DNA from: Synechococcus sp.
Lineage (GTDB): Bacteria > Cyanobacteriota > Cyanobacteriia > PCC-6307 > Cyanobiaceae
NCBI GenBank assembly: GCA_047284725.1
Contig: JBJBEO010000001.1
Span: 512,001-576,000, forward strand
Direction: 5' to 3'
DNA length: 64,000 nt
Positions 20,320-44,430 of the stretch are shown here, one piece after another (positions within the stretch are counted from its first letter, which is position 1; each line of letters opens with the position of its first letter). The notes below the pieces were generated by a model. That model saw only the letters and a list, made by a program, of their open reading frames with translations, was not told the origin of the DNA and did no database searches. The position numbers and the translations under genes are program-made.

Positions 20320-23300
20320 CCGATTGGCGCTTCTGGGTGGATCGCGGCGGCACCTTCACGGATCTGGTGGGATTGGCGCCGGATGGTCGTTTGATGGTGC
20401 GCAAGGTGCTGTCGGAGCAGCCTGGGTGCGAGGGGGATCCGGCGGTGCGGGCGATGGCCGACCTCTTGGCTGCCGAGGGGGCTGAGGGTCTGGCCTCGAT
20501 CGCTGAACTGCGACTGGGCACCACCGTGGCCACGAATGCCTTGCTGGAAGGTGTCGGTGATCGTGTGTTGCTGCTGACCAACACCGGTTTGGCCGATCTG
20601 CTGCGGATCGGTGATCAGCACCGGCGTGATCTGTTTGCGCTCGAACTGACACCGCCGCCCTTCCTGGCTGCGGCGGTGGAGGAGGTGCAGGGGCGGGTTG
20701 ATGCTGATGGTGCTGAAGTCGTCCCTTTGCAGCTCGATCAGGCGCTGGAGGGGCGGTTGCGTCAGCACCAGCGCCAGGGGTTGCGCAGCTGTGCGATCGC
20801 CCTGCTTCATGCCTGGCGCTATCCGGAGCATGAACGCCAGCTCGAGAGCTTTGTGCGCGGGCTGGGCTTCACCACGGTGGTGAGCTCCCATCGGGTCTGT
20901 CCGCTGCCCCGTCTGGTGCCACGGGGGCAAACCACCCTCGTGGAGGCTGCGGTGGCCCGCCCGTTGTTTGGCTATCTCGATCAGGTGCAGGCCGCTCTGG
21001 GCGGTCATGCCCGCTTGCGCGTGATGACCTCCAGCGGTGCCTTGCAATCGTCGGCGTGCCTGCAGGCCAAGGACACGATTCTGTCCGGTCCGGCCGGAGG
21101 AATGGTGGGTGCTGTCGCGGTGGCCCGTCGTGCCGGTCTGGTGGAGTTGCCCCTGGTGGGCTTCGATATGGGTGGCACCAGCACGGATGTGTTTTGTTTG
21201 CCGGCTGGGGCGGCTGACCGGATCTGGGAACGTTGCCCTGAAACGGACGTCGCAGGCCTGCAGTTGTTGGCGCCGCGGTTGCCGATTCACACCGTCGCTG
21301 CTGGTGGAGGTTCGATCATCGACCGCGATGGCGACCGGCTCACGGTTGGTCCTCGCTCGGCTGGTGCGGTGCCCGGCCCGGCCTGTTACCGCCGTGGCGG
21401 TCCTCTGACGGTCACCGATGCCAACCTGCTGCTGGGCCGTCTCCAGGTGCAGGGGTTCCCAGCGGTGTTTGGTCCTGCTGGGGATCAGCGTCCTGATCGG
21501 GAGGTGGTCCAGCAGCGGTTTGCTGCTCTGGCGGACGCGCTGGGGCGTTCAGTGGAGCAGCTCGCGGAAGGGGCCCTTGACCTTGCCGTTGAAACGATGG
21601 CGGCGGCCATCGAGCAGGTGTCGCTCTGCCGCGGCCATGACATCCGTGGTGGCGTGTTGGTGGCCTATGGCGGTGCAGCGGGTCAGTTGGCCTGCCGGGT
21701 GGCCGGCTGCTTGGGGTTGTCTCAAGTGCTGTTGCATCCGCTGGCGGGAGTGCTGTCGGCGTACGGCATGGGCCAGGCGCGCCAGCGCCAGTGGCGTCAG
21801 ATTGCGGTGCGACAACCTCTGACTCAGGCGTTCTGTTCTGGTTTGGAACAGCAGTGGCAAACGGCCCTTGGCGAAGCGGAGCAGCAGTTGCTGGCCGAGG
21901 GGGATGGGCATGGCGATGGGCTCGACTATCACGTGGCTCTGGAGTTGCGTGATCCCCAGGCTGAGCAGGGGTTGATGGTGACGCTGCCCCTCGGCGACGA
22001 AGACGGCGGTGTGACCTGTCCTGACCTGGCGGCGCTGGAGCAGGCGTTTGCGCATCTGCACCAGCAGCGTTTTGGGTTTTTGCCCGAGCGACGGGAGCCG
22101 CTGGTGGTGGAGCGGCTGGAGGTGGAGGTGTTGGCTCCCCCGTTGCTAGACGCAGCCGAGGGGGGGCGGCGTGAGTCGCTGGTGGATCAGGGCCAGGCCC
22201 CGCAGCACCCCGAGGAGGCCACGATGCATTGCCCTGGCCGCGGCTGGTGTTCCGTGCCGCTGTGGAAACGCGAGCTGTTGCAGGTGAACCAGGTGCTGGT
22301 GGGGCCAGCGCTGATTCTTGAAAGCACCGGTTGCATCGTGCTCGACCCAGGCTGGCAGGCCCGTTGCGTAGAAGGCGGAGATCTGGTGCTCAGCGATCAG
22401 CGAGACAGCACCTCCTCAGGGAGGGAGTCGGCCGAAGCAGCAGATGCGGCTGAGGTCGATCCGGTGGACCTCAGCCTCTTCCATCACCGCTTCATGGTGA
22501 TCGCGGAACGGATGGGAGAACGATTGCGACAGACCAGTCGCTCCGTGAACATTCGCGAGCGGTTGGATTTTTCCTGTGCGCTGTTCGATAGCGGCGGTGC
22601 GCTGGTGGCCAACGCTCCCCATATCCCTGTTCATCTCGGGTCGATGGGGGAGGCGGTGGTGGACCTGCTCAATCAGGTGAAGGCGGGTGCCCTGCCTGCG
22701 CTGGCTGATGGTGACGTGGTGATCAGCAATGACCCTTTCCACGGCGGCACGCATCTCCCCGACATCACGGCGATGACCCCAGTGTTCGCGGGACGTGAGC
22801 ATCCGCAATTCTTCGTGGCGTGCCGCGGTCACCATGCCGACGTGGGCGGTCTCACCCCAGGTTCGATGCCGCCGTTCAGTCAGCGGATCGACGACGAAGG
22901 CCTGCGTCTGCGGCACTGGTCGCTGGTGCGGCATGGGCAGTTCGATGGCGCCGCCTGGGATCGACGCCTGGCGTTGGAGACTCCCACGCCCCGTTGTCCG
23001 GAGGTGTTGCTGGCGGATCTGCAGGCCCAGGCAGCGGCCAATCGCCTGGGGGTGGAGTTGCTGGAGGCATTGGTGGCGCGTGAGGGCTTGGCACGGGTCA
23101 GCGATTACATGCGTTATGTGCAGGATCACGCCGCTGCCGCTGTGGAGGCGCTGCTGGAGCAGGTGTCGGACCAGCAGTTTGCAGTGGAGCTCGATAACGG
23201 GGCGGAGCTGAGGTTGACTCTGCGGGTGGACCAGAAGAAGCGCCGAGCGCACTTTGATTTCACGGGCAGTTCCCCTCAGGGCGACCACAATTTTCATGCC

Positions 23301-24032
23301 CCTCTGGCGGTGACAAAAGCGGCGGTTCTCTATGTGATGCGCTGCCTGGTGAAGGAGCCGATTCCGCTCAATGCCGGTTGTTTCCGGCCACTCACCCTCA
23401 CGGTGCCACCGGGGTCTGTTCTCAATCCTCAGGCCCCTGCGGCGGTGGTGGCCGGCAACGTGGAAACGTCTCAGGCTCTCTGCAACCTGCTGTTTGCCGC
23501 CATGGGGGTGATGGCGGCGGCCCAGGGCACGATGAACAATCTCAGCTTCGGGACGCCTCGGTTTCAGTACTACGAGACGATCGCCGGGGGGAGTGGGGCA
23601 GGAGAAGGCTTTGCCGGCGCTTGCGGCCTGCAGTGCCATATGACCAACTCCCGCCTCACGGACCCTGAGATCCTTGAACAGCGCTTCCCCGTGCGCCTTG
23701 AGCGGTTTGCCCGTCGAAGGGGCAGTGGTGGTCTGGGGCGTTGGCCGGGGGGCGACGGGCTCGAGCGCCAGTTCCGTTGTCTCGAGCCGATGACCGTGGC
23801 GTTGCTCTCAGGCAGCCGGCGTGTGGCGCCTTTCGGACTTGCCGGTGGTGGAGACGGCTGCTGCGGCATCAACCAACTGGAGCGGGCCGATGGGTCCTTA
23901 GAAGACTTGCCCGGTTGCGTGCAGTTGGACCTGCAGGCCGGAGAGGCTCTGATCATCGCCACCCCTGGGGGTGGCGGTTGGGGAGATCCCGCTGCGCTGA
24001 GTTGCCGACACGGCAATTTGAACAAGCTGTGA
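20316..24032 (+). CDS. Fused hydantoinase A/B, 5-oxoprolinase family protein
   Basis: DRGGTFTD, DMGGTSTD, SVNIRERLDFSCA, HIPVHLGSM, TPGGGGWG. Confidence 0.93.
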   Translation: MTDWRFWVDRGGTFTDLVGLAPDGRLMVRKVLSEQPGCEGDPAVRAMADLLAAEGAEGLASIAELRLGTTVATNALLEGVGDRVLLLTNTGLADLLRIGDQHRRDLFALELTPPPFLAAAVEEVQGRVDADGAEVVPLQLDQALEGRLRQHQRQGLRSCAIALLHAWRYPEHERQLESFVRGLGFTTVVSSHRVCPLPRLVPRGQTTLVEAAVARPLFGYLDQVQAALGGHARLRVMTSSGALQSSACLQAKDTILSGPAGGMVGAVAVARRAGLVELPLVGFDMGGTSTDVFCLPAGAADRIWERCPETDVAGLQLLAPRLPIHTVAAGGGSIIDRDGDRLTVGPRSAGAVPGPACYRRGGPLTVTDANLLLGRLQVQGFPAVFGPAGDQRPDREVVQQRFAALADALGRSVEQLAEGALDLAVETMAAAIEQVSLCRGHDIRGGVLVAYGGAAGQLACRVAGCLGLSQVLLHPLAGVLSAYGMGQARQRQWRQIAVRQPLTQAFCSGLEQQWQTALGEAEQQLLAEGDGHGDGLDYHVALELRDPQAEQGLMVTLPLGDEDGGVTCPDLAALEQAFAHLHQQRFGFLPERREPLVVERLEVEVLAPPLLDAAEGGRRESLVDQGQAPQHPEEATMHCPGRGWCSVPLWKRELLQVNQVLVGPALILESTGCIVLDPGWQARCVEGGDLVLSDQRDSTSSGRESAEAADAAEVDPVDLSLFHHRFMVIAERMGERLRQTSRSVNIRERLDFSCALFDSGGALVANAPHIPVHLGSMGEAVVDLLNQVKAGALPALADGDVVISNDPFHGGTHLPDITAMTPVFAGREHPQFFVACRGHHADVGGLTPGSMPPFSQRIDDEGLRLRHWSLVRHGQFDGAAWDRRLALETPTPRCPEVLLADLQAQAAANRLGVELLEALVAREGLARVSDYMRYVQDHAAAAVEALLEQVSDQQFAVELDNGAELRLTLRVDQKKRRAHFDFTGSSPQGDHNFHAPLAVTKAAVLYVMRCLVKEPIPLNAGCFRPLTLTVPPGSVLNPQAPAAVVAGNVETSQALCNLLFAAMGVMAAAQGTMNNLSFGTPRFQYYETIAGGSGAGEGFAGACGLQCHMTNSRLTDPEILEQRFPVRLERFARRRGSGGLGRWPGGDGLERQFRCLEPMTVALLSGSRRVAPFGLAGGGDGCCGINQLERADGSLEDLPGCVQLDLQAGEALIIATPGGGGWGDPAALSCRHGNLNKL

Positions 24033-24629: not shown

Positions 24630-25001
24630 ATGACACGCACCACACTCACCGCAGCAACCATGGCCTTGAGTGTTCTCGTTGCCCCTGCCCTTGCGGACGA
24701 TTCGAGAGTTAAAAGTATTGAGTTCGGCAATGTCTGGTTCACCGATCCCATGCTGTCGTTGAATTACGCACAATCCCAGGATGATCCTGCTGAATTTGCA
24801 CTCGCAGTAACGACCCCAGATCCAGTCAAATCCAAAAACGGACTTGACCAGTCAACAGCAGTTTTGGTCAACTGCAAGTCAGGAAAGTATTCCGCTTCTT
24901 TTGGATATCATCCAGAAAAAAGCTTCGAAGACGACGCTGAGCTAATCGCCATCAAATTCTGCAATATTCACAAAAAATCGTTTTCACATTCCCTCTGGTA
25001 A
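24630..25001 (+). CDS. Hypothetical secreted protein with MxRTTLTA leader
   Basis: Signal peptide ending ALA-DD; mature part is lower GC. Confidence 0.7.
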   Translation: MTRTTLTAATMALSVLVAPALADDSRVKSIEFGNVWFTDPMLSLNYAQSQDDPAEFALAVTTPDPVKSKNGLDQSTAVLVNCKSGKYSASFGYHPEKSFEDDAELIAIKFCNIHKKSFSHSLW

Positions 25002-25071
25002 CCCTCCTCAACAGCAAAGGAACCAGCGGACTCCCGCCGCCACAGACCAGCTCACGAGTCAACATCACCCC

Positions 25072-25437
25072 ATGATCCGCACCACACTCACCGCCATCGT
25101 CTCCACGGCTGCCCTGATGGCCGTCAGCGAGCCCATGGACCCACCCGTGGCCCACGCCGACACCGTGAAGGATGCGTTGTGTGTACTCCAACGATTGCCA
25201 CCCACCAATCTTCCTGATGGAGCTGTCGCCGCCCTGCTCCCCCCCGAGGAGTTCCGCTGTGACTTCACCCAACTGCGGGGCAACGTCTACATCGACAGCC
25301 AGCGCTGGGCCTTCGAGTTCCCCGATGCCGAGCGAGGAAAGACCTACAAGCGCCAGAACACAGTCGATTTCAAACGCTTCAGCCGTGAGGGGCACTACAC
25401 GCTGACCGTGTTCGAGTCAGGCGAGAAGCCGAACTAG
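25072..25437 (+). CDS. Secreted protein family 'B', copy 1 (slightly truncated)
   Basis: Paralogue of 38437-38787; TAG replaces the GAG(E) codon before PGGF. Confidence 0.7.
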   Translation: MIRTTLTAIVSTAALMAVSEPMDPPVAHADTVKDALCVLQRLPPTNLPDGAVAALLPPEEFRCDFTQLRGNVYIDSQRWAFEFPDAERGKTYKRQNTVDFKRFSREGHYTLTVFESGEKPN

Positions 25438-25634
25438 CCTGGCGGGTTCTGACCAGCACCCGACCCATAGGCTGAGCAGCATCAGACCATCAGGTGTAGG
25501 CGCCGCCTCACAGCACTGCTTACAGCCTTTTCGCTGATATGGAGGCGCCTCAACAAAGACTCTCCCAAGGCGTATCTACGTGATGGCGAATGGTCAGGCT
25601 CGACTGAATTGGCCACTAGAAACCACCACCAGCC

Positions 25635-26816: not shown

Positions 26817-27053
26817 GATGTCTGATAGGCGAAACGGGAAGGTCGACACGAGGCGATCCGTGATGCTGCAAGCTGCGTCGCGAGCGCCTGGTCCGGGCGG
26901 GGTGAGCGATGGGCCACGATTGCCACCCGTCTGGGCTGCTCACCATCAACTGCACGGAGGTGGGCCATGGCCTGACTCTCAGCTGATCCTCTTCAACGCT
27001 GGCCGCAGCAGTAAAAACAGGTTGTCTAATGAGGTCAGTCCATACTTGAAACC

Positions 27054-27248
27054 TTGCGGCCAATACTGACTCAACCTGACCCAACGACCAGGATTGTGTT
27101 GATCGTTCTGCTCCTGATGCAGCTCCCTTCACAGGCTCTTCAAGCCACCTGTGTCATCGACTTCGCCGCAGCTGTTGACGAGTCCTTGCCCATGCAGAGA
27201 AGGCTTGCTCTTGGCGTGTCCTTCTGCAACGGAGGGAGGGGCCGCTGA
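27054..27248 (+). CDS. Small hypothetical protein
   Basis: 64 aa with a hydrophobic N-terminal half, ending FCNGGRGR. Confidence 0.45.
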   Translation: MRPILTQPDPTTRIVLIVLLLMQLPSQALQATCVIDFAAAVDESLPMQRRLALGVSFCNGGRGR

Positions 27249-27277
27249 TGCCCAGAGCAGCACAAGGACCAAGGCAG

Positions 27278-27470
27278 CTCAGCCGATCCCTTTCAACGCT
27301 GATCGCAGCAGCAACAACAGATCACCTGCAGCAATCTCCACCGGTGCATCCGGTGCCGCTCATGGCGATCTTTGCCCTGCCGAGACGTTGGCACGCGCCA
27401 AGCGAGTTCTTTTAGTCGTGAGCATCGTGCTCGATTATCCCGAGGCGATCGGCCTCAGGTCATCCAAGGC
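27278..27470 (+). repeat. 29-bp motif plus frameshifted small ORF 'A' (block Rc)
   Basis: Aligns with 38246-38430 and with the reverse complement of 33270-33454. Confidence 0.85.
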
Positions 27471-27819: not shown

Positions 27820-29676
27820 TCAGGCGACCACCAGCTGTCCTGCCCCATTGCCCCTGGCTTCAGCCATGGCCTGTTGGGCGCGATCCAGCAGGCTGTCGGC
27901 TGTATCGGCTCCTGGCACGAAGCAGCTCACGCCCACGCATGCACTGCTGAAAAGCTTGGTGTCGGTCTCTGGGTTCAAGAGGTAAACCTGCGAAATAGCA
28001 TTGCGCAAGCTGTCCGCCAAGCTGAACGCGTCTTGTGGCTGGCAGCCAATGACCAGCACCACAAAGCTGTCCTGGCCGGGACGGTACAAATGATCTGTGG
28101 TGCGCAGCCTCCTGAGAACCGCCTTGGCCAGCCCCTGCAGAAGGGCATCGCCGGCGCGGCGGCCATGGCTTTTGTTGAACGCGCCGAAGTTATCCACATC
28201 CAGACAGATGCAGGTCAGAGCCTCACCGCTGCGCTTGCAGCGCTCTACTTCCTCCTGTAGTCGCTCTTCCAGAGCTTGGGGGTTGCCGCAGCCCGTGAGG
28301 GGATCGCGGCGCAGCAGGTTTTGCAACTCGCGGCGGGAGCTGTGCAGTTTGCCGTTGGCCAGCCGCAGCCGTTCGCTCAGCTGATTGGCCTGCCGGCTGC
28401 GGTCGTTGATCTGCTCGGCCAACTGACGCAGTTCGATGACGCCCGAGAGATGCAGAGGTACTAGTTCATTGCGCTTGGCTTCCAGCGGTGCCACCGCCAG
28501 AGAGAACTCGCGCTTCACTAGGCGGCCCAGCCACAGGCTCAGCCAGGCTGCAAGCAATACCGTAATGAAAATCACTCCCAGAAGGTAGGAGCTTTGCTGT
28601 TGCATGCGGATGACCGTTGGCCCGGCCGGCTGCACGACCTGGACCAAACTGGTGGTCGTCTTGTCGACGGTGGTCGCCTCGTACTGGTGGCTGTAACTCC
28701 AGTAGCCATTGACCCATTTTTTTAGTGTCGGTTTCTGGCCACGGGGGATCAGAAGCGCCAGCTCCTTGTTGTTCACATGGGCGCGGCCGCTGTCTTGGAA
28801 GTCGGTCTCGAGGCGGTCGAACAGCGCTGGATCCGAGCTCTGTACCAGGCCATCGCTATCGATTCGTCGGAAAGCCAGCTGATCATTGAGACCCTGCAGT
28901 AGTTCGGAGCTGTTCGAGCCGGGGGCGCGGGCGATGGCCATACTCAGGGTCTTCAAACCATCGAGCGCGCCGTTCTCCACTGCGAGCCCGATCTGGTCAT
29001 TGGCGATCAGGCTTAACAGCAGGGTGGGCATGATGACAGCCATCATCACCACCACAGCGATCAACCCTCGCAGCGAAATGCCGGGGCCCTTGCCGCGCTC
29101 AATCAGCAACCAGCGGATCATCAGCACGGCGGTCATCGCCAGAACCGTGTTGAAAACTCCGTTGAAGCTCTGCTTCACCGCCACCACGGTCACATTGGCC
29201 AGGTCGATCTGCATCACCACGCCGTAGAACAGCAGCACCAACGGCGCGCCGATCAGCAGCCAGTAGACGATCGAGTAGGACACCACCCTTCCGTCGGTGT
29301 CGTTGCGGGCCGGTCCGTTCCAACGATGAAGGGCCAGCCACAGCCAGGCCAGTTCGGCGGTGAAGATCAGCACCGCCCATGGATGGCCCCAGAGTCGAAT
29401 CGTCTGAAGGGCGGCGAGTGTGGCCATTGGCACCGCCCACCAGGTGCGCCAGAGCAACAGCGCAATCAGGGCCGGCAGCGAGCCGAGAAGCACATGGATT
29501 CCGTAGAACAGGGGTACCGGCAGGGTGTTCAGCGCCACCCCCAGGCCGCTTAGCAGTGCCAGCCAGCTCAGGCGTTGCTGACGATCACGCAGAACAGCCG
29601 TGGCTTGCTCGGGATGGCCCGAGGCCAGCAACTGTTTGGGGTTCGGCGTTTGGTCGTGAGGCAGTGCTTCAGGCAT
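27820..29676 (-). CDS. Multi-TM sensor protein with a degenerate GGDEF domain
   Basis: DPLTGCGN, LDVDNF, HGRRAGD; RTTD-x5-GQDSF in place of GGDEF. Confidence 0.88.
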   Translation of the reverse strand: MPEALPHDQTPNPKQLLASGHPEQATAVLRDRQQRLSWLALLSGLGVALNTLPVPLFYGIHVLLGSLPALIALLLWRTWWAVPMATLAALQTIRLWGHPWAVLIFTAELAWLWLALHRWNGPARNDTDGRVVSYSIVYWLLIGAPLVLLFYGVVMQIDLANVTVVAVKQSFNGVFNTVLAMTAVLMIRWLLIERGKGPGISLRGLIAVVVMMAVIMPTLLLSLIANDQIGLAVENGALDGLKTLSMAIARAPGSNSSELLQGLNDQLAFRRIDSDGLVQSSDPALFDRLETDFQDSGRAHVNNKELALLIPRGQKPTLKKWVNGYWSYSHQYEATTVDKTTTSLVQVVQPAGPTVIRMQQQSSYLLGVIFITVLLAAWLSLWLGRLVKREFSLAVAPLEAKRNELVPLHLSGVIELRQLAEQINDRSRQANQLSERLRLANGKLHSSRRELQNLLRRDPLTGCGNPQALEERLQEEVERCKRSGEALTCICLDVDNFGAFNKSHGRRAGDALLQGLAKAVLRRLRTTDHLYRPGQDSFVVLVIGCQPQDAFSLADSLRNAISQVYLLNPETDTKLFSSACVGVSCFVPGADTADSLLDRAQQAMAEARGNGAGQLVVA

Positions 29677-32933: not shown

Positions 32934-33207
32934 AGCTGCTGGCTACTGAGATACCTCGGTGAACATCGGACCCACCCGGTCTTGAGCATCGCCTGCCACG
33001 CCTCAATGGCGTTGTGCCTGAGCATCCGCCTCACGACAGGTTGCCCACCACCACGTAGCGGCCTGGTCTCCACCTCAACCCACTTGGCATGGGCTGAGGC
33101 CAACGCATTCCGGAAGCAGACCACCTTCTGCTCCTGTTCATTCAGCAGCCAACCTTCCCCATTTATCTGAGGGTGTGGTTCAGGGTGCTGGCTCTTGCGT
33201 TCGCACC
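32934..33207 (-). pseudogene. DUF1651-like copy (start lost, 3' frameshift)
   Basis: Inverted near-identical copy of 40170-40433. Confidence 0.7.
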
Positions 33208-33209
33208 GA

Positions 33210-33266
33210 TCAGAACCCGCCAGGCTCGTTCGGCTTCTCACCTGACTCGAACGTGGTGCGGAGCAT
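33210..33266 (-). pseudogene. Internally deleted copy of secreted protein 'B'
   Basis: MLRTT fused directly to FESGEKPNEPGGF*. Confidence 0.8.
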
Positions 33267-33269
33267 GGG

Positions 33270-33454
33270 TTTCAGTCTTGGTTGACGGTGAGGCCAATCG
33301 CCTAGAAATGATCGAGCACGGTGCTCACAGCTGCAAGCACCTGCTTGGCGCGTGCCAGCGTCTCGGCAGGGCCTTGGCCCCGGCTGATGCACCGGTTGAG
33401 ATTGCTGCGGGTGACCTGTTGCTGCTGCGATCAGCGTTGAAGGGGATTGGTTGA
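33270..33454 (-). repeat. 29-bp motif plus small ORF 'A' remnant (block Rc)
   Basis: QQVTRSNLNRCISRGQGPAETLARAKQVLAAVSTVLDHF*AIGL. Confidence 0.85.
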
Positions 33455-33461
33455 TTTCTGC

Positions 33462-33589
33462 GCAGGAGAGCACCAGCCCCCTTAGGCGAAGAGGCCGGTG
33501 CTCTGTGGGACCCCTCTATGCCCTCAAGGCCCCACAGGTGAATCAACTCCCGACTCATGAGGGATCGATACCCCTAAGTGGGGACATTG
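33462..33589 (-). ncRNA. Structured ~125-nt element, copy E2
   Basis: Four hairpins shared with 33883-34013 and 38114-38238. Confidence 0.55.
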
Positions 33590-33882: not shown

Positions 33883-34013
33883 TGCATGAGAGCACCAGCC
33901 CCCGGAAGGGAGAGGGCAAGTGCTCCATGGGGCTCTCGTTCTCTCACCAAGAACCCAACAAAAGGACTCAACTCCTGATCCATGAGGGATCGATACCCCT
34001 TGGTGGGGACAAT
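33883..34013 (-). ncRNA. Structured ~125-nt element, copy E3
   Basis: Same stems as E1 and E2 with different loops. Confidence 0.55.
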
Positions 34014-34062
34014 GAGAGGGCTGAGGGTCAGGTCCTGGTTGACCGAGATTCTCCAGAGGCGC

Positions 34063-37051: not shown

Positions 37052-37270
37052 GATGTGGCCCTTTAATACCTAGCCTTGTTTAGCTGAGTGTGCTCTTTCT
37101 CGGCAACGAGGTGTGTTTGGCTGTAGAAGACCTTCCCCCCTCTGGTTGCCTTTCTCAGTCGTATGCCATCGACTCTGGTGAGTGTGGCCACGCAGGGTTC
37201 ACCCGTGAGATAATGAGGTCATCGACAGGGCAGCCACAGGCGCCGGTCGATCACCACAGCATTCAATCCA

Positions 37271-37426
37271 ATGACCAACGCCGAACGCGCGGTGGTCCTC
37301 TACGAGCTCTACACGAAGCTCGATGAGTTGATCACCGCTGAGGAGATGGAAACCTTCCCATTCCTCGAACATCTTGCCGACCTCATTGAAGATCTGGAGG
37401 GGGAACCCCCGCCTTCGTCGTCTTAA
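37271..37426 (+). CDS. 51-aa acidic helical protein (block Rb; not in ORF track)
   Basis: MTNAERAVVLYELYTKLDELITAEEMETFPFLEHLADLIEDLEGEPPPSSS; decayed paralogue at 26397-26488. Confidence 0.6.
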   Translation: MTNAERAVVLYELYTKLDELITAEEMETFPFLEHLADLIEDLEGEPPPSSS

Positions 37427-38113: not shown

Positions 38114-38238
38114 CAATGTCCCCACCTAGGGGTATCGATTCCTCATTGGTCGGGAGTTGAGTCCTTTTGTGGGGCTTTGACAGACGGAGCCCCATAGAGC
38201 ACTTGCCCTCATGAGCCCGGGGGCTGGTGCTCTCCTGC
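38114..38238 (+). ncRNA. Structured ~125-nt element, copy E1
   Basis: Four hairpins; bracketed by the 29-bp motif at 38086 and 38246. Confidence 0.55.
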
Positions 38239-38245
38239 GCAGAAA

Positions 38246-38431
38246 TCAGCCGATCCCCTTCAACGCTGATCGCAGAAGCAACAGCAGATCACCCGCAGCA
38301 ATCTCTACCGGTGCATCCGCCGGGGCTAAGGCCCTGCCGAGACGCTGGCACGCGCCAAACAGGTGCTTGCATCCGTGAGCACTGTGCTCGATCATTCCGA
38401 GGCGATTGGCCTCATCAACAACCAAGACTGA
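38246..38431 (+). repeat. 29-bp motif plus small ORF 'A' remnant (block Rc)
   Basis: QQITRSNLYRCIRRG*GPAETLARAKQVLASVSTVLDHSEAIGLINNQD*. Confidence 0.85.
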
Positions 38432-38436
38432 AACCC

Positions 38437-38787
38437 ATGCTCCGCACCACACTCACCGCCATCGCATCCACGGCTGCGCTGATCGCTGTCAGCGAACCGA
38501 TGGATCCACCAGTGGCCCAGGCCGACACCGTGAAGGATGCGCTCTGCGTCCTTTCCCGCCACGACGACTCCATCCCCAGGGAGGAGTTCCGCTGCGACTT
38601 CACCCAGACCATGGGCGGCGCTTATGTCGACAGCACGCGCTGGGCATTCATCTTTCCCCACTCCGAGCAGGACAAAACCTTCAGTCGGCAGAACACCGAA
38701 GATTTCATTCGCTGGACCCGTGAAGGTCAATACACACTGACCCTGTTCCAAAGCGGAGAGAAGCCAAACGAGCCCGGCGGGTTCTGA
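38437..38787 (+). CDS. Secreted protein family 'B', intact copy
   Basis: MLRTTLTAIASTAALIAV leader; paralogue at 25072. Confidence 0.75.
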   Translation: MLRTTLTAIASTAALIAVSEPMDPPVAQADTVKDALCVLSRHDDSIPREEFRCDFTQTMGGAYVDSTRWAFIFPHSEQDKTFSRQNTEDFIRWTREGQYTLTLFQSGEKPNEPGGF

Positions 38788-38852
38788 TCGGTTGGAACGT
38801 AAGAGCCAGCTCAGGTTCTGCAAATCACTGATCAAGGCTTCAATCAGACACT

Positions 38853-38881
38853 AAAAAAGCCCCGCCGAAGGGCAGGGCTTT
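38853..38881 (-). terminator. Terminator of the RTX-like gene (possibly bidirectional)
   Basis: A6-GCCC(C)GCC-gaag-GGCAGGGC-TTT. Confidence 0.7.
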
Positions 38882-38904
38882 GCGGGTCTTGATAAGGCAG
38901 CGCC

Positions 38905-40017
38905 TTACACAATTAGGAAGCCATTGACAACATCGTAGGTGTTGCCGAATTCGAGAGCAACTGCGCCCATTTCATTCACATCGTCATTTTGATCAATGGT
39001 GCCGCTAATGCCGCTAATCAGTTCAAAGTTACGGATAATCATACGGCCCCCCGAACCGTCGACGAGGTAGGGAGACCCTCCGTTTTGGCCATCGACATAG
39101 CTATAAGTACCATTACCGAGCACAATTTTGTCTTTAGTGCCTGCAACTTCTCCGTCTCTTACAAACCCGTCACCGTCGAATCTAATCCCGGAGCTAAAAC
39201 CATCTCCAATCAAGGTGTCGTTGTCTGCGCCAAGATAAATACGCCCGAACCCTTCGAAACCGCCAGTAAGTGCATCGACCGTATCATTGCCTGCGCCCGT
39301 AATAATAGTATTTCTAGAAAAAGTGAAGGAAATCCCGGCGTCGTCACTGGTGCTAACACCAGTAATTGAATCGTCGCCGCTACCGGTTCTGATAAATCCT
39401 CGGGTAAGGCTGATCCCAGTCGCCCCCTCTCCGTAAATTGAATTATTTCCGTCGCCCAATTGTATGTTTGAACGATCTAAATATACCCCGACAGCTCCAC
39501 CCGTTCCGTTAACCGAATCATTGCCATCTTCGGCTAGAAGGAGAAGGCCCGAACTTTCCAGATTAATTCCATGACTTCCACCTGTTCCATTGATTGAGTT
39601 ATTTCCATTGCCCATGTCTATTAGTGATAATTTTGCTGATACCCCATAGACTCCCCCTTCTCCATTAATCGTATCGTTGCCATTGCCAGTAGTAAGCGCG
39701 GACTCAATTAGGTATACACCATTGAGTTCACCAACACCAACAAATGTATCGCTTCTGTCGCCTGTAATCAGTCTAGATCTAACTAATAGGATGCCATCAT
39801 CTTCAAGCAGAACGTTTCCTTCGGAATCTTCTTCGCCATTGCCGACAATGGTTACTTTTTTGTTTAGCGACCCAGCCTGCCCTCCCCCAGTGACTGGATC
39901 AGTACTAGTTGTGTCCAATACTTGACCATCCAGCACCCAAGAGCTTGCTTTCAATGATGCACGGCTTTGAGGGGAAAGCTCTTGGAATGCTTTCAGAAGA
40001 TCAAAATGATCGGACAT
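38905..40017 (-). CDS. RTX-like Gly/Asn/Asp-rich calcium-binding repeat protein (start uncertain)
   Basis: Repeats TGNGNDTING, MGNGNNSING, DGNDSVNG, LGDGNNSIYG, TGSGDDSITG, TGAGNDTVDA; lower GC. Confidence 0.8.
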   Translation of the reverse strand: MSDHFDLLKAFQELSPQSRASLKASSWVLDGQVLDTTSTDPVTGGGQAGSLNKKVTIVGNGEEDSEGNVLLEDDGILLVRSRLITGDRSDTFVGVGELNGVYLIESALTTGNGNDTINGEGGVYGVSAKLSLIDMGNGNNSINGTGGSHGINLESSGLLLLAEDGNDSVNGTGGAVGVYLDRSNIQLGDGNNSIYGEGATGISLTRGFIRTGSGDDSITGVSTSDDAGISFTFSRNTIITGAGNDTVDALTGGFEGFGRIYLGADNDTLIGDGFSSGIRFDGDGFVRDGEVAGTKDKIVLGNGTYSYVDGQNGGSPYLVDGSGGRMIIRNFELISGISGTIDQNDDVNEMGAVALEFGNTYDVVNGFLIV

Positions 40018-40169
40018 TAAAAAACAGTAACTAGCTTCAAACTTCGTCGGCAGGCGCTTGGTTTGTCTTAAGTCCTCATGAGAATCGGGTGAGCGTATTT
40101 CTTGCGTTTCTATCTGACTCATTTCCAGATCGGTTACAAGACATGCGAGAGAGAGCAGTGTTCTGATCG

Positions 40170-40433
40170 ATGGAACGCAAAAGCCAGCACCCTGAGCCGC
40201 ACCCTCAGAAAAACGGGGAAGGCTGGCTGCTGAACGCACAGGAGCAGAAGGTGGTCTGCTTCCGGAATGCGTTGGCCTCAGCTCATGCCAAGTGGGTTGA
40301 GGTCGAAACCAGGCCGCTGCATGGTGGTGGGCGGCCCGTCGTGAGGCGGATGCTCAGGCATAACGCCATCGAGACATGGCAGACGATGCTCAAGACCGGG
40401 TGGGTCCGGTGTTCACCGAGGCATCTCAAGTAG
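40170..40433 (+). CDS. DUF1651-like picocyanobacterial protein
   Basis: GEGWLLN...RRMLRHNAIETWQTMLKTGWVRC. Confidence 0.7.
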   Translation: MERKSQHPEPHPQKNGEGWLLNAQEQKVVCFRNALASAHAKWVEVETRPLHGGGRPVVRRMLRHNAIETWQTMLKTGWVRCSPRHLK

Positions 40434-40446
40434 CCAGCAGCTACTT

Positions 40447-40854
40447 CTAAAAGCCGGACATGATCCTCAGCCTTGTGGCGATGAATTTCTTGGTCTGTTC
40501 CCTGGTGTCTTCGCTGCACCTGGCGGCTCGCATTGTGATTCCGTAGCCGAGCTTCGTAGGGACATTCAGCTCGATTCCGTTGCGGCCAAGGAATAAGCGA
40601 GTGGCGATAAAAGACATCCGCTTGTTGCCTTCTGCGAAGCCGTGGTTTTTGTTCATCGCCAGCATTAGATGGGCGGCCAAGACGAAGCGATCGTCTTCCT
40701 CGGCGTAAAACCAAAGCTGCTGCGGTGCGGCCAAAGCCTGCTCCAGCTTGTGGGTGTCGATACCGGGAATCCCTCCGTAAAGCTTCAACATCCGGGCGTG
40801 AGCCGGTTCAAGCCACTCCCGCTTCAACCAACTCGGCTCAACCGGCCGAGGCAT
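40447..40854 (-). CDS. Fic/Doc family toxin
   Basis: HGFAEGNKR motif; YGGIPGI..LEQALAAP. Confidence 0.9.
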   Translation of the reverse strand: MPRPVEPSWLKREWLEPAHARMLKLYGGIPGIDTHKLEQALAAPQQLWFYAEEDDRFVLAAHLMLAMNKNHGFAEGNKRMSFIATRLFLGRNGIELNVPTKLGYGITMRAARCSEDTREQTKKFIATRLRIMSGF

Positions 40855-41063
40855 CAGCTATCGGAAAGGAGCCGCATCAGCTCGTCGTTTTCCTCGAAAG
40901 TCCTCTCCAAGGCCCTGAGCATTCCGGCGTCACCGCAGACGTCAGAGTTGGCCTGGGGCAGATCAACGACAGAGCGTCGCTTCACATCAACGCGCCGGAC
41001 GAACTGCATCGACCGACCTTCAGGGCCGGGGTTGATACGGATTTTCCGCTTCTCCTTCTCCAT
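40854..41063 (-). CDS. Putative antitoxin of the Doc toxin
   Basis: 69 aa, TGATG coupling to the toxin start, C-terminal FEENDELMRLLS helix. Confidence 0.65.
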   Translation of the reverse strand: MEKEKRKIRINPGPEGRSMQFVRRVDVKRRSVVDLPQANSDVCGDAGMLRALERTFEENDELMRLLSDS

Positions 41064-41088
41064 GCCGTCGATTCTGGACTTGCCGGCT

Positions 41089-41241
41089 TCAGACCGCAAG
41101 CAGTTGGGCCAAGGCCAGGGCGTCGGCCACATCGAGGCAGACCTGGCCGTCCATCGGGTGGGCCTGGCTGAGGGCAGTGTGGAGGCGGCCGATCAGGGCC
41201 AGCCTGGGGTTGTCCTCCACAGCACTGGTGGCCTGATTCAC
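41089..41241 (-). CDS. Possible 50-aa hypothetical protein
   Basis: MNQATSAVEDNPRLALIGRLHTALSQAHPMDGQVCLDVADALALAQLLAV. Confidence 0.3.
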   Translation of the reverse strand: MNQATSAVEDNPRLALIGRLHTALSQAHPMDGQVCLDVADALALAQLLAV

Positions 41242-41859
41242 ACCCACCGCCGCCACCTACACCCTGGGCAGACCGGCGCTGGCTGCAGTACAGGCCAGAC
41301 GGCTGGAAATTCTTTGGAACCCTATTGCGTCTTGAAACTCAGAGATGGCGCATTTCTCTTATTGATCCACCTTGTTCCGGCTGACCCGGCCAGGGATCTC
41401 CTCTATATCCGACTGGCCCGAGAGCTGATCCGGTTGATCGCCGACCTGAAGAAGCTGAGTGGGTGAACTGGCTCATCCCTCATCCTGGGCCCGGGATGCC
41501 GTTGGCGATCCGCCGCCGGCGCCTGGCCTGATCACCATCCACCCGGCGGTGGCCACCACCCACCGTGTTGATCCGGGGCCACGGCCTCGCAGCCACCCTC
41601 CACCAGCTGCCGCCCTCGGGCCTGGGCCTCCTCCAGCGTGGCCTTCCCCTCCGGTGTGGCCAGATGCTTCCCCCACCATTCCGGCCCTCGCCCTCGCCGG
41701 CTGGCCAGTGCGTCCCGTCCCGATCACCCTGGCTTCTCTTCTGCCTCGGCTTCCGCTTCGCCGGCATCGCCCAGGGACGCACCTGCCCCCATGCTGCGCC
41801 CAATTCTGCGCCCCGGTGGTGCTTTTCAGATCAAGGCCGCGGCCGCCAGCCCAGTGCTG

Positions 41860-42633
41860 TCAGTCGATCTCTAGCCCCTCGGCCATCTCAAGATTGGCGC
41901 TGACGCCGCTCACGTCGTCGAGTTCGTCGAGCGCGTCGAGCAGCTTCAGGCATTGCCGCGTTGTTTCGACGTCATTGATCGTCACGTTGGTGAGCGGATG
42001 CCAGCAGTGCTCCCAGCTCTGCACGTCCCAACCCTTCACCCGAAGGCCGTTCTGCAGGCGTTCTAGGGCGTCAAATGGCCCATGCACCACGGCTGATCCC
42101 GCTTCGCTGAGGTCATAGCCGTCGGCATCGAGATCGAGAAGGGTTTCCAGCAGTTGGTCTTCGCTCAGTGCTCCCTTGGTCGCATCGGGAGTCGCAGCAG
42201 GGCGGATGCGCACTTCACTGCGGTGCTCAAACAGATAACTGACGCAACCGATCTCGCCGAGATTGCCTCCGTTCTTGCTGAATGCCAGCCGAACGTCGGC
42301 GGCGGTGCGATTGCGATTGTCGGTGAGGGCCTCAATCAGCACCGCGACTCCCCCCGCTGCGTAGCCCTCATACCGGATTCTTTCCAGCTGAAGGGCACCG
42401 TCGCTCCCCTGACCTGACCCTTTGGCGATGGCGCGATCAATGTTGGCGGCTGGAAGACCAGCGGCTTTGGCTTTGGCGATGGCGGTTCGCAGTTGAAAGT
42501 TGCCGGCTGGATCACCGCCACTGCGGGCTGCCACCGTGATCTCGCGGCCGATGCGGGTGAACACTGCACCGCGTTTGGCATCCACCAAGGCCTTGGTGCG
42601 TTTGATCTGGGCCCATTTGCTGTGGCCGGCCAT
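41860..42633 (-). CDS. yebC: YebC/PmpR family protein
   Basis: [31 protein letters not shown]. Confidence 0.96.
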
Positions 42634-42698
42634 CGAATCGCAACTACAGCTTTGCAGGAGAAGGGTAGTGGCTGGTCTGCAACCGCCTCAGCCACCGC

Positions 42699-43616
42699 TC
42701 AGCCATGGGCATTGAAGACCACCTTGGGTCGCAGGAGCTCGTCAGTTTCCATAATCCCGATCCCCAGCATCGGCCCGCTGGTCTGCAGCACCATCACCGT
42801 GTCTCCTTGGTTGGCAAGGCCCTCAGCCAGCTGCAGGCGTCGGCCACAGCGCCAGTCCTCGCGCTCCGCTTCAGTGGCCAGGTGATGGGTGAGGTGAGAC
42901 AACGCCTGCTCCGGGGGCAGGACCTCCGGCAACGCCTTCTGGTTGGCCTCTTGGTGGTCGGGCCAGTCCGGCAAGGGCACGGCTTGATCGATGGGGAAGC
43001 CAAGGGCCTGAATCCGCCGCAAACCGGCCAGACAGCCACCGCAACCAAGCCGTGCCCCCAGGTCACGGGCCAACGAGCGGATATAAGTGCCTGCCGAGCA
43101 GTGAACCTCCAGCTCGAGGCGCCCCGTTTCTGGGTTCCAGTCGAGTAGCTGAAGACGGTGGATGGTCACCGGCCTGGGCGGTAAATCCATGCTTTCGCCG
43201 CGTCGCACCCGTTCATGGGCCCGCATGCCGTCGACATGCACGGCCGAGACCTGAGGGGGTTGTTGAGCGATCGCTCCGCGAAAGGCGGCAAGCGCTTCGT
43301 CGAGCTGATTCGTCGTCAGTTTGGGCCACGACCTTGTGGTGAGGGGCTCCCCGTCGAGGTCGTCGGTGCTGGTGGTCTGTCCCAGTTGGATGCTGCCGCG
43401 ATAGGTCTTTTCACCAGGTAAGTAAGGCAGCAGGCGTGTGGCTGGGCCCAAGGCGATGGGAAGCACCCCGGTGACTGCCGGATCGAGGGTGCCACCGTGG
43501 CCGACACGTTTTAGGCCAAAACATCGCCTCAGGCGACTGACGCAGTTGTGGGAGGTGAGACCGGCGGGTTTATCAATCACCACGAAGCCGAAGGGACCCT
43601 CCACCGACGCATCCAT
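42699..43616 (-). CDS. truB: tRNA pseudouridine(55) synthase
   Basis: IDKPAGLTS, GHGGTLDP, CSAGTYIRSLARD. Confidence 0.96.
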   Translation of the reverse strand: MDASVEGPFGFVVIDKPAGLTSHNCVSRLRRCFGLKRVGHGGTLDPAVTGVLPIALGPATRLLPYLPGEKTYRGSIQLGQTTSTDDLDGEPLTTRSWPKLTTNQLDEALAAFRGAIAQQPPQVSAVHVDGMRAHERVRRGESMDLPPRPVTIHRLQLLDWNPETGRLELEVHCSAGTYIRSLARDLGARLGCGGCLAGLRRIQALGFPIDQAVPLPDWPDHQEANQKALPEVLPPEQALSHLTHHLATEAEREDWRCGRRLQLAEGLANQGDTVMVLQTSGPMLGIGIMETDELLRPKVVFNAHG

Positions 43617-43680
43617 CACGCTTCGACGACTGTGCCAGTTCAAGCTGCCCGGTAGGTTGGCCGACGACTCCAAGCACTCC

Positions 43681-44430
43681 ATGCAAGAGCTTCGATCCAC
43701 CAGCGTGGATGTGAATGCCTTCCTCCGGGATGGTTTGCGGGTGAAAGAGCACCTCAGCACCTACCTCGACCTTGCGTTGCAGGAGGTGGAACAGCGGCTG
43801 CACCGTGGTACCGAAGCGTTGGCAGCGCTTCACCCTGGCGCGTTTCAGGCCGATGACGCCACCGGGTTTTATGAAGAGACGGTGGGCACTGGTCACTTGC
43901 TGGAACTGGCGGCGTGGCATCTGAGCAGTGCCGACTACATCGCCGACACCTTGCGCCTGCAGCAGCAGTTCGCTTCAGGTCAGGTGCTCGACTTTGGTGG
44001 GGGCATCGGCACCCATGCCTTGTCGGCAGCGGCCTTGCAGAGCGTCGAGCACGTGTGGTTTGTCGACCTCAACCCTCACAATCGAGCCTTTGTTGCGCAG
44101 CGGGCAGCTGCGCTGGGTCTTGCTGGCAAGCTCTCGGTGCACCGGGATCTCGAAGGCTGCGCCGATCAACGGTTCGACACCGTGGTGTGCCTGGATGTGC
44201 TGGAGCATTTGCCGGATCCATCTGCTCAGCTCGAGCGTTTTCATGCCGCCATGGCCCCCGGCGCCACAGCCTTACTCAATTGGTATTTCTTTAAAGGTCA
44301 CCACGGCGAATATCCCTTCCACTTCGATGACCCTGTCCTCGTTGAAACGTTCTTTCGAACATTGCAGAGGTGTTTTCTGGAGGTCTTTCACCCCTTCCTG
44401 ATCACCACTCGCGCCTACCGGCCGGCCTGA
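43681..44430 (+). CDS. Class I SAM-dependent methyltransferase
   Basis: VLDFGGGIG, CLDVLEHL. Confidence 0.88.
   Translation: MQELRSTSVDVNAFLRDGLRVKEHLSTYLDLALQEVEQRLHRGTEALAALHPGAFQADDATGFYEETVGTGHLLELAAWHLSSADYIADTLRLQQQFASGQVLDFGGGIGTHALSAAALQSVEHVWFVDLNPHNRAFVAQRAAALGLAGKLSVHRDLEGCADQRFDTVVCLDVLEHLPDPSAQLERFHAAMAPGATALLNWYFFKGHHGEYPFHFDDPVLVETFFRTLQRCFLEVFHPFLITTRAYRPA

What the first reader, a model, noticed from the sequence alone, without database searches (positions are those of the whole stretch)
38781..40188. RTX-like gene sits between ~30-bp direct repeats, with the matching empty site in the same window
Seen: GTTCTGATCGGTTGGAACGTAAGAGCCAGC (38781-38810) and GTTCTGATCGA-TGGAACGCAAAAGCCAGC (40160-40188) bracket a ~1.35-kb lower-GC segment holding the RTX-like gene and its terminator. 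The inverted paralogous module has a single copy (33187-33216, GTTCTGATCGGTGCGAACGCAAGAGCCAGC) joining gene B directly to DUF1651. At 25447 the same site is internally deleted. Inference: insertion of a circular cassette by crossover in this site, possibly excisable.
Basis: partly seen in the sequence, partly recalled or inferred. Interest (0 to 1): 0.7.

Follow-up and report, generated by a model that had tools for sequence, protein, structure and literature searches.

The report
Old insertion scar in cyanobacterial island
A low-GC gene for a beta-helix protein lies between two copies of the short junction that normally joins two small island genes, but it looks like an old, fixed recombination scar, not a mobile cassette.

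Summary
The 30-mer at 38781-38810 recurs as a 29-mer at 40160-40188. It occurs once, inverted, at 33187-33216, where the two flanks are contiguous. The 30-mer is the operon junction: the last 7 nt of geneB with its stop, a 4-nt spacer, then the start and 6 codons of a DUF1651 gene.

The repeat is longer than reported. The 46 nt left of the right copy are a decayed geneB 3' end (26/46 in register; null maximum 24 in 5000). The block between the repeats (about 38811-40113) is compositionally foreign (GC3 0.41 against 0.70-0.76). It is homologous nearly end to end to a broken paralogous block elsewhere in the genome that has no such repeats.

Nothing supports an att site or current mobility:
- there are only five copies, all in this genome;
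- there is no recombinase, hairpin or terminal inverted repeat;
- no second cargo has both junctions;
- both junctions are conserved in a sister strain and in metagenome contigs.

Best reading: an old recombination scar in a family of tandem, mosaic island modules. A Campbell-type crossover is not excluded. Interest is low to moderate.

The parts
38114..38436 (+). Repeated upstream element (UCE) in front of geneB; copies in modules B, C, D, E and at 782-790 kb of the genome
   Evidence: 82-93% identity between copies
38437..38787 (+). geneB_A, 116 aa with a signal-peptide-like N-terminus (read by eye); no Pfam or NCBIfam family; its stop TGA lies inside the left repeat
   Evidence: paralogs; 88% nt to a gene of G016
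38781..38810 (+). Left 30-mer: last 7 nt of geneB (GTTCTGA), a 4-nt spacer, and a vestigial start plus 6 codons of a DUF1651 gene
38811..38852 (+). 42-nt block. It also follows the 30-mer of paralog E (95%) and is present in diverged form beside the RTX paralog D
38856..38881 (-). Terminator-like hairpin (11 pairs, then a T-run) of the RTX-like gene
38905..40017 (-). RTX-like gene, 370 aa with G-x-G-N-D repeats; predicted right-handed beta-solenoid; GC3 0.41
   Evidence: (PF00353 14.3 bits, below the cut-off of 23)
40018..40113 (-). Upstream region of the RTX-like gene; homology to block D runs to about 40097-40112
40114..40159 (+). Decayed remnant of the last 46 nt of a geneB
   Evidence: 26/46, 25/44, 27/44 in register; null maximum 24 of 5000; -46..-11, 1 of 200 shuffles as good
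40160..40188 (+). Right 29-mer: vestigial geneB stop, spacer, and the working ATG plus 6 codons of DUF1651_A
40170..40433 (+). DUF1651_A gene (87 aa)
   Evidence: PF07864, 41.6 bits, cut-off 22
32947..33266 (-). Module B: geneB remnant, a single 30-mer (33187-33216) and DUF1651_B. This is the uninterrupted junction
25446..25470 (+). Module C junction: end of geneB_C, the site with about 18 nt missing, about 9 nt of DUF1651, then unrelated DNA

Best explanation
The 30-mer is not an attachment site. It is the operon junction of a two-gene island module: geneB stop, 4 nt, then the DUF1651 start. In module A a 1.3-kb compositionally foreign block lies between two things. On its left is an intact geneB that keeps only the first 19 nt of a DUF1651 gene. 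On its right is an intact DUF1651 gene that keeps only a decayed ~46-nt tail and the stop of a geneB. The block holds the 42-nt piece, a terminator, a beta-solenoid 'RTX-like' gene and its upstream region.

Most likely, one old recombination event in a tandem pair of geneB-DUF1651 modules replaced everything from codon 7 of the first DUF1651 to position -46 of the second geneB with this block. The modules belong to a family that keeps recombining, so that modules B, C, E and F are all chimeras or truncations. The arrangement has since been inherited vertically and is not mobile now.

Shown: the anatomy, the vestiges on both sides, the foreign composition, the mosaic of paralogs, and the conservation of both junctions in other samples.
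Inferred: that two tandem modules were involved, that there was a single replacement step, and the age of the event.
For: (1) The site equals the gene junction. Part of it codes the DUF1651 N-terminus, which tblastn matches from residue 4 in other species.
(2) A decayed geneB tail lies left of the right copy. Nothing between the copies other than the RTX block is unaccounted for: homology to D covers about 38817 to 40097-40112.
(3) Tandem and mosaic organisation of the family:
- two geneB-like ORFs stand in tandem at 24630-25437;
- contigs in 4 of 4 runs join 40442 back to 37320;
- the blocks shared by A and E stand in a different order;
- B combines an A-like 5' part and DUF1651 with an E/C-like geneB tail.
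(4) The two copies differ at 4 of 30 positions, like paralogous modules (A-B 91%, A-F 89%).
(5) There is no recombinase in the window. Of 6 PF00589 matches in the genome, none lies in the window (genome 512-576 kb; the nearest are at 382 kb and 364 kb). There are 0 PF00239 matches. There is no hairpin (z 0.1-1.4) and no terminal inverted repeat among the 25 longest of 29 pairs.
(6) The paralogous block D has no flanking repeat.
(7) The left junction is bridged by a contig of run X1 (3 differences and 1 gap in 268 nt). The right junction is bridged by contigs of X3 and X8 (7-10% different).
Against: There is no remnant of the first DUF1651 body or of a second upstream element, so the replacement would have been clean. 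Both breakpoints left both genes intact, which needs selection or luck. B and F show that a single module with one junction exists, which is also what a single insertion that duplicated its target predicts. Diagnostic sites in the 46-nt remnant do not say whether it derives from geneB_A itself or from another copy (read by eye: 4 sites against 3). No orthologous locus of a close relative could be fetched, so the polarity and age of the event rest on paralogs only.
Confidence: 0.5

Rival explanations
1. Campbell-type insertion. A circular DNA carried the RTX block plus a copy of the junction (about 76 nt: geneB tail, stop, DUF1651 start). It recombined once with a single chromosomal geneB-DUF1651 module by host homologous recombination, with the crossover in the best-matching 30 nt. 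This duplicated the junction on both sides.
For: Direct repeats of the junction lie exactly at the edges of a block that is one homology unit with D. Uninterrupted paralogous junctions B and F exist. The block is compositionally foreign. The asymmetry of the repeats fits a crossover between a diverged incoming copy and the resident one: the tail is poorly matched (26/46) and the 30-mer well matched.
Against: The circle must already have carried the left-type junction (DUF1651 vestige joined to the 42 nt), so an earlier illegitimate event is needed anyway. The longest perfect match between the copies is 10 nt today. No circle joint or empty joint is among the listed joints of 4 runs, though 12 joints were not shown and contigs drop rare forms. 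D has no junction copy.
Confidence: 0.25
2. A dedicated site-specific cassette system. The 30-mer, with the conserved 42-nt and about 45-nt cassette ends, is an att-like site used by a recombinase acting in trans. Cassettes are still excisable, and E and F are half-sites of other cassettes.
For: The left junction plus 42 nt occurs twice (A, E), and in E it is followed by different, AT-rich, phage-like DNA. Breakpoints cluster in the first ~30 nt of DUF1651 in A/E and C.
Against: F is a decayed full geneB plus DUF1651, that is an empty module and not a cassette end. E has no right junction, and none of the 7 DUF1651 matches in the genome lies near it. There are only 5 copies, all in this genome. 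None of the 151 loci from the three public collections holds the site. There is no structure, inverted symmetry or nearby recombinase. The arrangement is fixed across diverged samples.
Confidence: 0.05
3. A one-step illegitimate insertion that duplicated about 76 bp of target, for example repair of a widely staggered break or template switching during repair. Both vestiges then decayed neutrally.
For: It needs a single event. The duplication edges coincide with the block edges. Synonymous divergence among DUF1651 copies is large enough for the remnants to be this decayed (my rough estimate: 23-28 nt differences against 7-8 aa differences).
Against: I know of no bacterial mechanism that regularly gives about 76-bp target duplications (recalled knowledge, not searched). 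The left vestige (16/19) is better kept than the right tail (26/46). The paralog D has no duplication.
Confidence: 0.08

Closest known systems
Campbell-type (single-crossover) integration and duplication-insertion scars made by general recombination
   Same: An inserted block is flanked by direct repeats of the segment shared with the target, and the element carries no recombinase.
   Different: The homology is short and diverged (30 nt at 87% plus 46 nt at 57%). No circular form was seen. A replacement inside a tandem module pair explains the same picture.
Integron gene cassettes (IntI, attI, attC)
   Same: A single promoter-poor gene unit of about 1.3 kb is bounded by a recurring short sequence.
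   Different: There is no integrase, no folded attC-like imperfect palindrome and no array. The site is coding and junction sequence of the neighbouring genes.
Tycheposons and other integrative elements of picocyanobacterial genomic islands (bioRxiv 10.1101/2020.12.28.424599; abstract and introduction read)
   Same: Cargo is gained inside a hypervariable island of a marine picocyanobacterium-like genome.
   Different: According to the abstract, those elements excise and integrate at seven tRNA genes. Here there is no tRNA at the site and no sign of mobility.
Calcium-binding beta-helix and RTX-type repeat proteins, such as the Ca2+-dependent beta-helical antifreeze protein 3p4g and serralysin or CyaA RTX domains
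   Same: G-x-G-N-D repeats and a predicted right-handed beta-solenoid. VIA Z 20.1, rmsd 2.7 over 241 residues to 3p4g; Z 11.6 to a CyaA RTX fragment.
   Different: The Pfam RTX repeat scores below its cut-off (14.3 against 23 bits). Foldseek gave no match at E<=0.001. The equally good matches to adhesin beta-helices (EtpA Z 21.5) show a common fold, not a function.
DUF1651 host-response genes of marine Synechococcus and Prochlorococcus (PMC5490813; passages read)
   Same: The right-hand gene is a DUF1651 member and the second gene of a small operon in an island, as for SYNW1658 in that paper.
   Different: That paper does not describe junction duplications or insertions next to these genes in the passages I read.

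Membership tests
Integron gene cassette | Integron integrase (tyrosine recombinase) next to the array | tested here: not met
   No recombinase family among 39 ORFs of 12.8-50.4 kb. None of the 6 PF00589 matches in the genome lies in the window.
Integron gene cassette | attC: an imperfect inverted repeat that folds as a single strand (the core consensus GTTRRRY is recalled) | tested here: not met
   DNA folds of both junctions and of the B site on both strands give z 0.1 to 1.4 against shuffles. The site starts GTTCTGA.
Integron gene cassette | An array of several cassettes, each ending in an attC | tested here: not met
   Five copies in the genome at four separate loci; only A has two.
Integrase-borne island element (prophage, ICE, tycheposon type) | The element encodes its own recombinase | tested here: not met
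   The only long ORF between the repeats is the beta-solenoid gene, which has no Pfam family at E<=0.01.
Integrase-borne island element (prophage, ICE, tycheposon type) | Integration into a tRNA or tmRNA gene, with the att repeat being its 3' part | tested here: not met
   Rfam and ARAGORN find no tRNA at 38-41 kb. The repeat is the geneB/DUF1651 junction.
Insertion sequence / transposon / MITE | Terminal inverted repeats and a short target duplication; a transposase if autonomous | tested here: not met
   No inverted pair joins the two ends among the 25 longest of 29 pairs. The duplication is 30-76 nt. There is no transposase. The paralogous block D has no flanking repeat.
Campbell-type homologous integration | Direct repeats of the shared segment flank the insert, with hybrid copies | tested here: met
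   The feature is equally produced by two tandem modules.
Campbell-type homologous integration | A circular intermediate or an empty allele at the same locus | tested here: inconclusive
   No such joint is among those listed for 4 runs. These were contigs only and 12 joints were not shown.
RTX repeat protein (PF00353) | Nonapeptide repeats above the Pfam gathering score | tested here: not met
   E 0.04, 14.3 bits against a cut-off of 23. NCBIfam and PDB sequence searches found nothing.
RTX repeat protein (PF00353) | Beta-roll or beta-helix fold with Ca2+-binding turns | tested here: inconclusive
   The model is a beta-solenoid (pLDDT 78.7). Z 20.1 to 3p4g and 11.6 to a CyaA RTX fragment, but Z 21.5 to the adhesin EtpA. 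Calcium binding is not testable here.
DUF1651 (PF07864) | Match above the gathering score | tested here: met
   41.6 bits (A) and 38.6 bits (B) against a cut-off of 22.

The most novel reading that the evidence does not exclude
The geneB/DUF1651 junction, about 76 nt, may serve as a reusable homology anchor. Through it, circularised or vesicle- or phage-delivered DNA would be swapped in and out of island modules by the host's general recombination, without any dedicated recombinase. In this reading A (RTX block) and E (AT-rich, terminase-linked DNA behind the same 72 nt) are two fillings of the same kind of site, and B and F are its empty states.
Probability: 0.1. Interest if true: 0.6.

Novelty: new member of a known kind. 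Interest (0 to 1): 0.25.

Why it matters
How flexible genes enter the hypervariable islands of marine picocyanobacteria is still only partly understood. tRNA-targeting elements explain part of it (abstract of bioRxiv 10.1101/2020.12.28.424599). This locus is a clean, small example of a foreign-composition gene placed between two native, phage-responsive island genes with no element-borne recombinase. The junction vestiges on both sides record how it got there. As it stands it is an ordinary recombination scar. It would matter more if population data showed the junction being reused for different cargo.

Tried and rejected
- Public collection scans. I used a 22-24-nt degenerate core of the site. 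It was too loose: 96 + 53 + 2 loci, all from unrelated organisms. None of the 151 had geneB, DUF1651 or the RTX-like protein by tblastn.
- Orthologous locus in relatives. The nearest species representatives are only about 73% identical in YebC-TruB. The geneB loci of G016 and G017 share only geneB with the window, so no true orthologous empty site could be examined.
- Reads. Only contigs were available. No joint skipping 38811-40159 and no circle joint is among those listed (12 joints and 700 pieces were not shown). Parts without cover are not evidence either way.
- Local alignments for a decayed DUF1651 body after the left 30-mer, and for geneB in the 340 nt of locus D, were no better than shuffles. 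A harsh-scoring local alignment of the right flank against geneB was borderline. The in-register test was the informative one.
- Genome-wide self-BLAST for other repeat-flanked low-GC inserts gave 49 pairs but did not recover the A pair itself, so it is too insensitive to count. Its best candidate (384466/385550) is two DUF1651 3' fragments.
- Phage origin: no match for the protein or the DNA in 50,697 phage records.
- The 3-mismatch hit in G031 has no module genes nearby and is taken as chance.
- The search of earlier findings returned nothing.
- I considered imperfect terminal inverted repeats (11/15, by eye). My rough estimate is about 0.1 such match expected by chance, and one search did not find them, so I rejected them.
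Full report
**Setting.** The window is positions 512,001-576,000 of a single-contig 2.58-Mb genome with 59.4% GC. It carries kaiABC at 45-48 kb. It also carries DUF1651 genes, a family that a paper describes as limited to marine cyanobacteria among bacteria (PMC5490813, passages read). I therefore treat it as a marine picocyanobacterium-like genome. The finding lies in a 17-kb variable stretch (about 24-41 kb). This stretch sits between an oxoprolinase gene (20316-24032) and yebC/truB (41860-43760). It holds small ORFs without families, two GGDEF genes, a kinase-like gene, an SNase-like gene and a Fic/DOC gene, and no recombinase.

The 30-mer is at 38781-38810. A 29-nt copy is at 40160-40188, with one base missing and three substitutions. 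One inverted copy is at 33187-33216. None of 100 shuffles gave two matches. The 1349 bp between the copies have GC 0.44-0.51, against 0.57-0.62 outside. Module B (32947-33481, reverse strand) is colinear with 38219-38810 plus 40160-40442 at 82-95% identity and has one copy of the site. In B, geneB is only a stump: its first ~14 nt are joined to its last ~40-50 nt.

**What the 30-mer is.** Its first 7 nt (GTTCTGA) are the last codons and stop of geneB (38437-38787; 116 aa; signal-peptide-like N-terminus by eye; no family). Then come 4 nt of spacer, then the start codon and six codons of a DUF1651 gene (40170-40433; PF07864 at 41.6 bits). So the left copy ends geneB and carries a dead DUF1651 start. 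The right copy carries a dead geneB stop and starts the live DUF1651. The contiguous arrangement must therefore be the older one.

In four other species, geneB homologs (72-88% nt) are followed by unrelated DNA right after the stop. DUF1651 homologs there match from residue 4 or 11 on.

**The repeat is longer than 30 nt.** I compared the 46 nt upstream of each copy in register.
- The right flank (40114-40159) matches the geneB_A tail at 26/46, the geneB_E tail at 25/44 and the F flank at 27/44.
- For 5000 random genome 46-mers (best of five shifts) the mean is 14.8 and the maximum 24.
- Further left (-47 to -118) identity is at the random level (15-21 of 72).

The right copy is thus preceded by a decayed geneB tail, and the degenerate direct repeat is about 76 nt.

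At locus F (genome 794.8-795.1 kb) the region -198 to -101 upstream of the site aligns colinearly with geneB positions 145-241 of 344. The score is 25-26 against a null maximum of 18, with 0 of 200 shuffles as good. F is therefore a decayed geneB joined through a single site to DUF1651. It is a second uninterrupted junction besides B.

**The block between the repeats.** It holds:
- a 42-nt piece (38811-38852);
- a strong terminator-like hairpin (38856-38881, minus strand);
- a 370-aa ORF (38905-40017, minus strand);
- about 100 nt upstream of that ORF.

The protein has G-x-G-N-D repeats. The Pfam RTX repeat scores below its cut-off (14.3 against 23 bits). NCBIfam and PDB sequence searches gave nothing. 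An AlphaFold model from 16 sequences (pLDDT 78.7, pTM 0.81) is a right-handed beta-solenoid. Foldseek found nothing at E<=0.001. VIA-align gave Z 21.5 to the adhesin EtpA, Z 20.1 (rmsd 2.7, 241 residues) to a Ca2+-dependent beta-helical antifreeze protein, and Z 11.6 to a CyaA RTX fragment. 'RTX-like beta-helix' is a fair description of the fold but not a family assignment.

GC3 is 0.41. It is 0.76 for geneB and DUF1651, and 0.70-0.73 for three core genes. The two paralogs elsewhere in the genome have GC3 0.36-0.42.

Homologs are rare. In the genus, 2 of 46 genomes match at E<=1e-10, namely this genome and one weak hit. In the large protein collection there are 25 hits. Two of them (89% and 73% identical) come from one other genome with a 2,574,287-bp contig. 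There is no match in phage records.

**Paralogous loci show a mosaic.** Only five copies of the site exist in the genome: A-left, A-right, B, E and F.
- **Locus E** (425.1 kb) has a geneB paralog (84-86%), the site and the same 42 nt (95%). It then continues with unrelated AT-rich DNA and, 3 kb on, a terminase-like ORF. None of the 7 DUF1651 matches in the genome is near it.
- **Locus D** (377.9-379.8 kb) has the upstream element, 340 nt of unrelated DNA, and then homology to the A block from about 38817 to about 40097-40112 at ~72%. This includes a broken RTX paralog. D has no copy of the site and no flanking direct repeat.
- **Locus C** (25.4 kb) has geneB, the site with about 18 nt missing, about 9 nt of DUF1651, and then unrelated DNA.

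The blocks that A shares with E stand in a different order. B joins an A-like 5' part and DUF1651 (91.2% to A) to an E/C-like geneB tail. Two geneB-like ORFs stand in tandem at 24630-25437. The family is therefore organised in tandem, and its members are chimeras and truncations.

**Tests of an attachment-site reading.**
- The site with up to 3 mismatches occurs in 2 of 46 genomes of the genus. One is this genome. The other is a 3-mismatch hit with no module genes nearby.
- A looser core found 151 loci in the metagenome, genome and viral collections. None had the module genes.
- Neither junction folds better than shuffles.
- There are no terminal inverted repeats.
- None of the six tyrosine-recombinase matches lies in the window, and there is no serine recombinase.
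- The two copies share at most 10 identical bases in a row.

**Population evidence (contigs of four runs from four studies).**
- A contig of X1 bridges the left junction (38578-38846; 3 differences and 1 gap).
- Contigs of X3 (39975-40211) and X8 (40069-40252) bridge the right junction with 7-10% differences.
- X1 covers the whole block. The 3' half of the gene is about 10% different, while 40331-41500 has 2 differences.
- No joint that skips the block and no circle joint is among those listed. These are contigs, and 12 joints were not shown.
- All four runs hold a contig that joins 40442 back to 37320. This fits another order of the same modules, or a tandem array, elsewhere.

The filled arrangement is therefore shared by diverged relatives. 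That points to an old, inherited state.

**Mechanism.** Two things are shown. A foreign-composition block sits exactly between the two halves of a duplicated gene junction, and each half carries a vestige of the other gene. How the duplication arose is inferred. I favour (0.5) one old replacement inside a tandem pair of modules. This needs one illegitimate event, fits the tandem and mosaic family, fits the decayed second geneB tail, and fits the paralog-level divergence of the two copies.

A Campbell-type crossover of a circle carrying the junction (0.25) gives the same picture and explains the sharp rise of identity at the 30-mer. However, it needs a donor that already had the left junction. 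A long target duplication in one step (0.08) and a dedicated cassette system (0.05) are less likely. Whatever the origin, recombination between two 87%-identical 30-mers would be rare, so 'excisable' is unsupported.

**Comparison and novelty.** The locus works like a Campbell or duplication-insertion scar. It fails the tested defining features of integron cassettes, integrase-borne island elements and transposons. It is a new example of a known kind of event in a picocyanobacterial island. The most novel reading that remains open is that the junction is a reusable homology anchor for cargo exchange (probability about 0.1).

Noticed in passing
window 38114-38436; also 33253-33589, 33884-34017, 26978-27457; genome 379600-379803, 422475-422548, 782650-783277, 789877-789973: A composite repeated element of about 300 nt stands upstream of geneB-type genes, with at least 8 full or partial copies at 82-93% identity. 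It includes a strong hairpin (38187-38238). There is no Rfam family at gathering score. It could be a shared promoter/5'-UTR module, a small RNA or a MITE-like repeat.
   Followed up: partly
genome 425182-429600 (L184:7183-11600): Directly after the geneB_E-30mer-42nt block comes about 3 kb of GC 0.47-0.52 DNA with family-less ORFs, and then an ORF with a weak phage terminase large-subunit match (PF04466, E 8.7e-6). This may be a phage-derived remnant inserted there.
   Followed up: partly
window 38437-38787 against G016:C1:2217527-2217880: geneB is 88% identical in DNA (93% in protein) to a gene of another species. That species' yebC matches at only about 74%, over part of the gene, and its flanks are unrelated. 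This suggests recent horizontal transfer of the ORF alone.
   Followed up: partly
window 40442 -> 37320 (joint in runs X1, X3, X5, X8): Contigs in all four runs join the end of the DUF1651 unit back to the middle of the 37174-37404 block. The A/B homology also ends at 40442. This fits a recurrent module boundary or a tandem array in other strains.
   Followed up: no
window 38825-39813 (run X1): In the sister-strain run the 3' half of the RTX-like gene is about 10% different, its 5' part about 2%, and the flanks 0.2-1.5%. Two variant contigs cover 39334-39591. This indicates mosaic or fast evolution of the repeat gene.
   Followed up: no
window 38791 and 38800 (run X1): Two of the four differences in the 268-nt X1 contig fall inside the left 30-mer (one base missing; T>C). 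Both make it more like the right copy. This could be gene conversion between the copies, or changes that arose in this genome.
   Followed up: no
genome 378087-379077 (L185:6057-7093): The RTX paralog at locus D is broken: it has one in-frame TAA and a frameshift near the C-terminus. A third, intact paralog lies at genome 1822324-1823277 with unrelated flanks.
   Followed up: partly
window 40447-40854 (-) and 40854-41132 (-): A Fic/DOC-family gene (PF02661, E 1.1e-12) has a 92-aa ORF directly upstream. The pair may be a toxin-antitoxin system. It abuts the DUF1651 gene.
   Followed up: no
window 28284-28369 (-): ARAGORN calls an 86-nt tRNA-Gly inside a GGDEF-domain ORF. Rfam does not confirm it at gathering score, so it is probably a false call.
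   Followed up: partly
genome 384466-384494 and 385550-385578: A 29-nt direct repeat (93%) around 1055 bp of lower-GC DNA. Both copies are 3' fragments of DUF1651-like genes on the minus strand, next to a distant geneB-like gene (384092-384433).
   Followed up: partly
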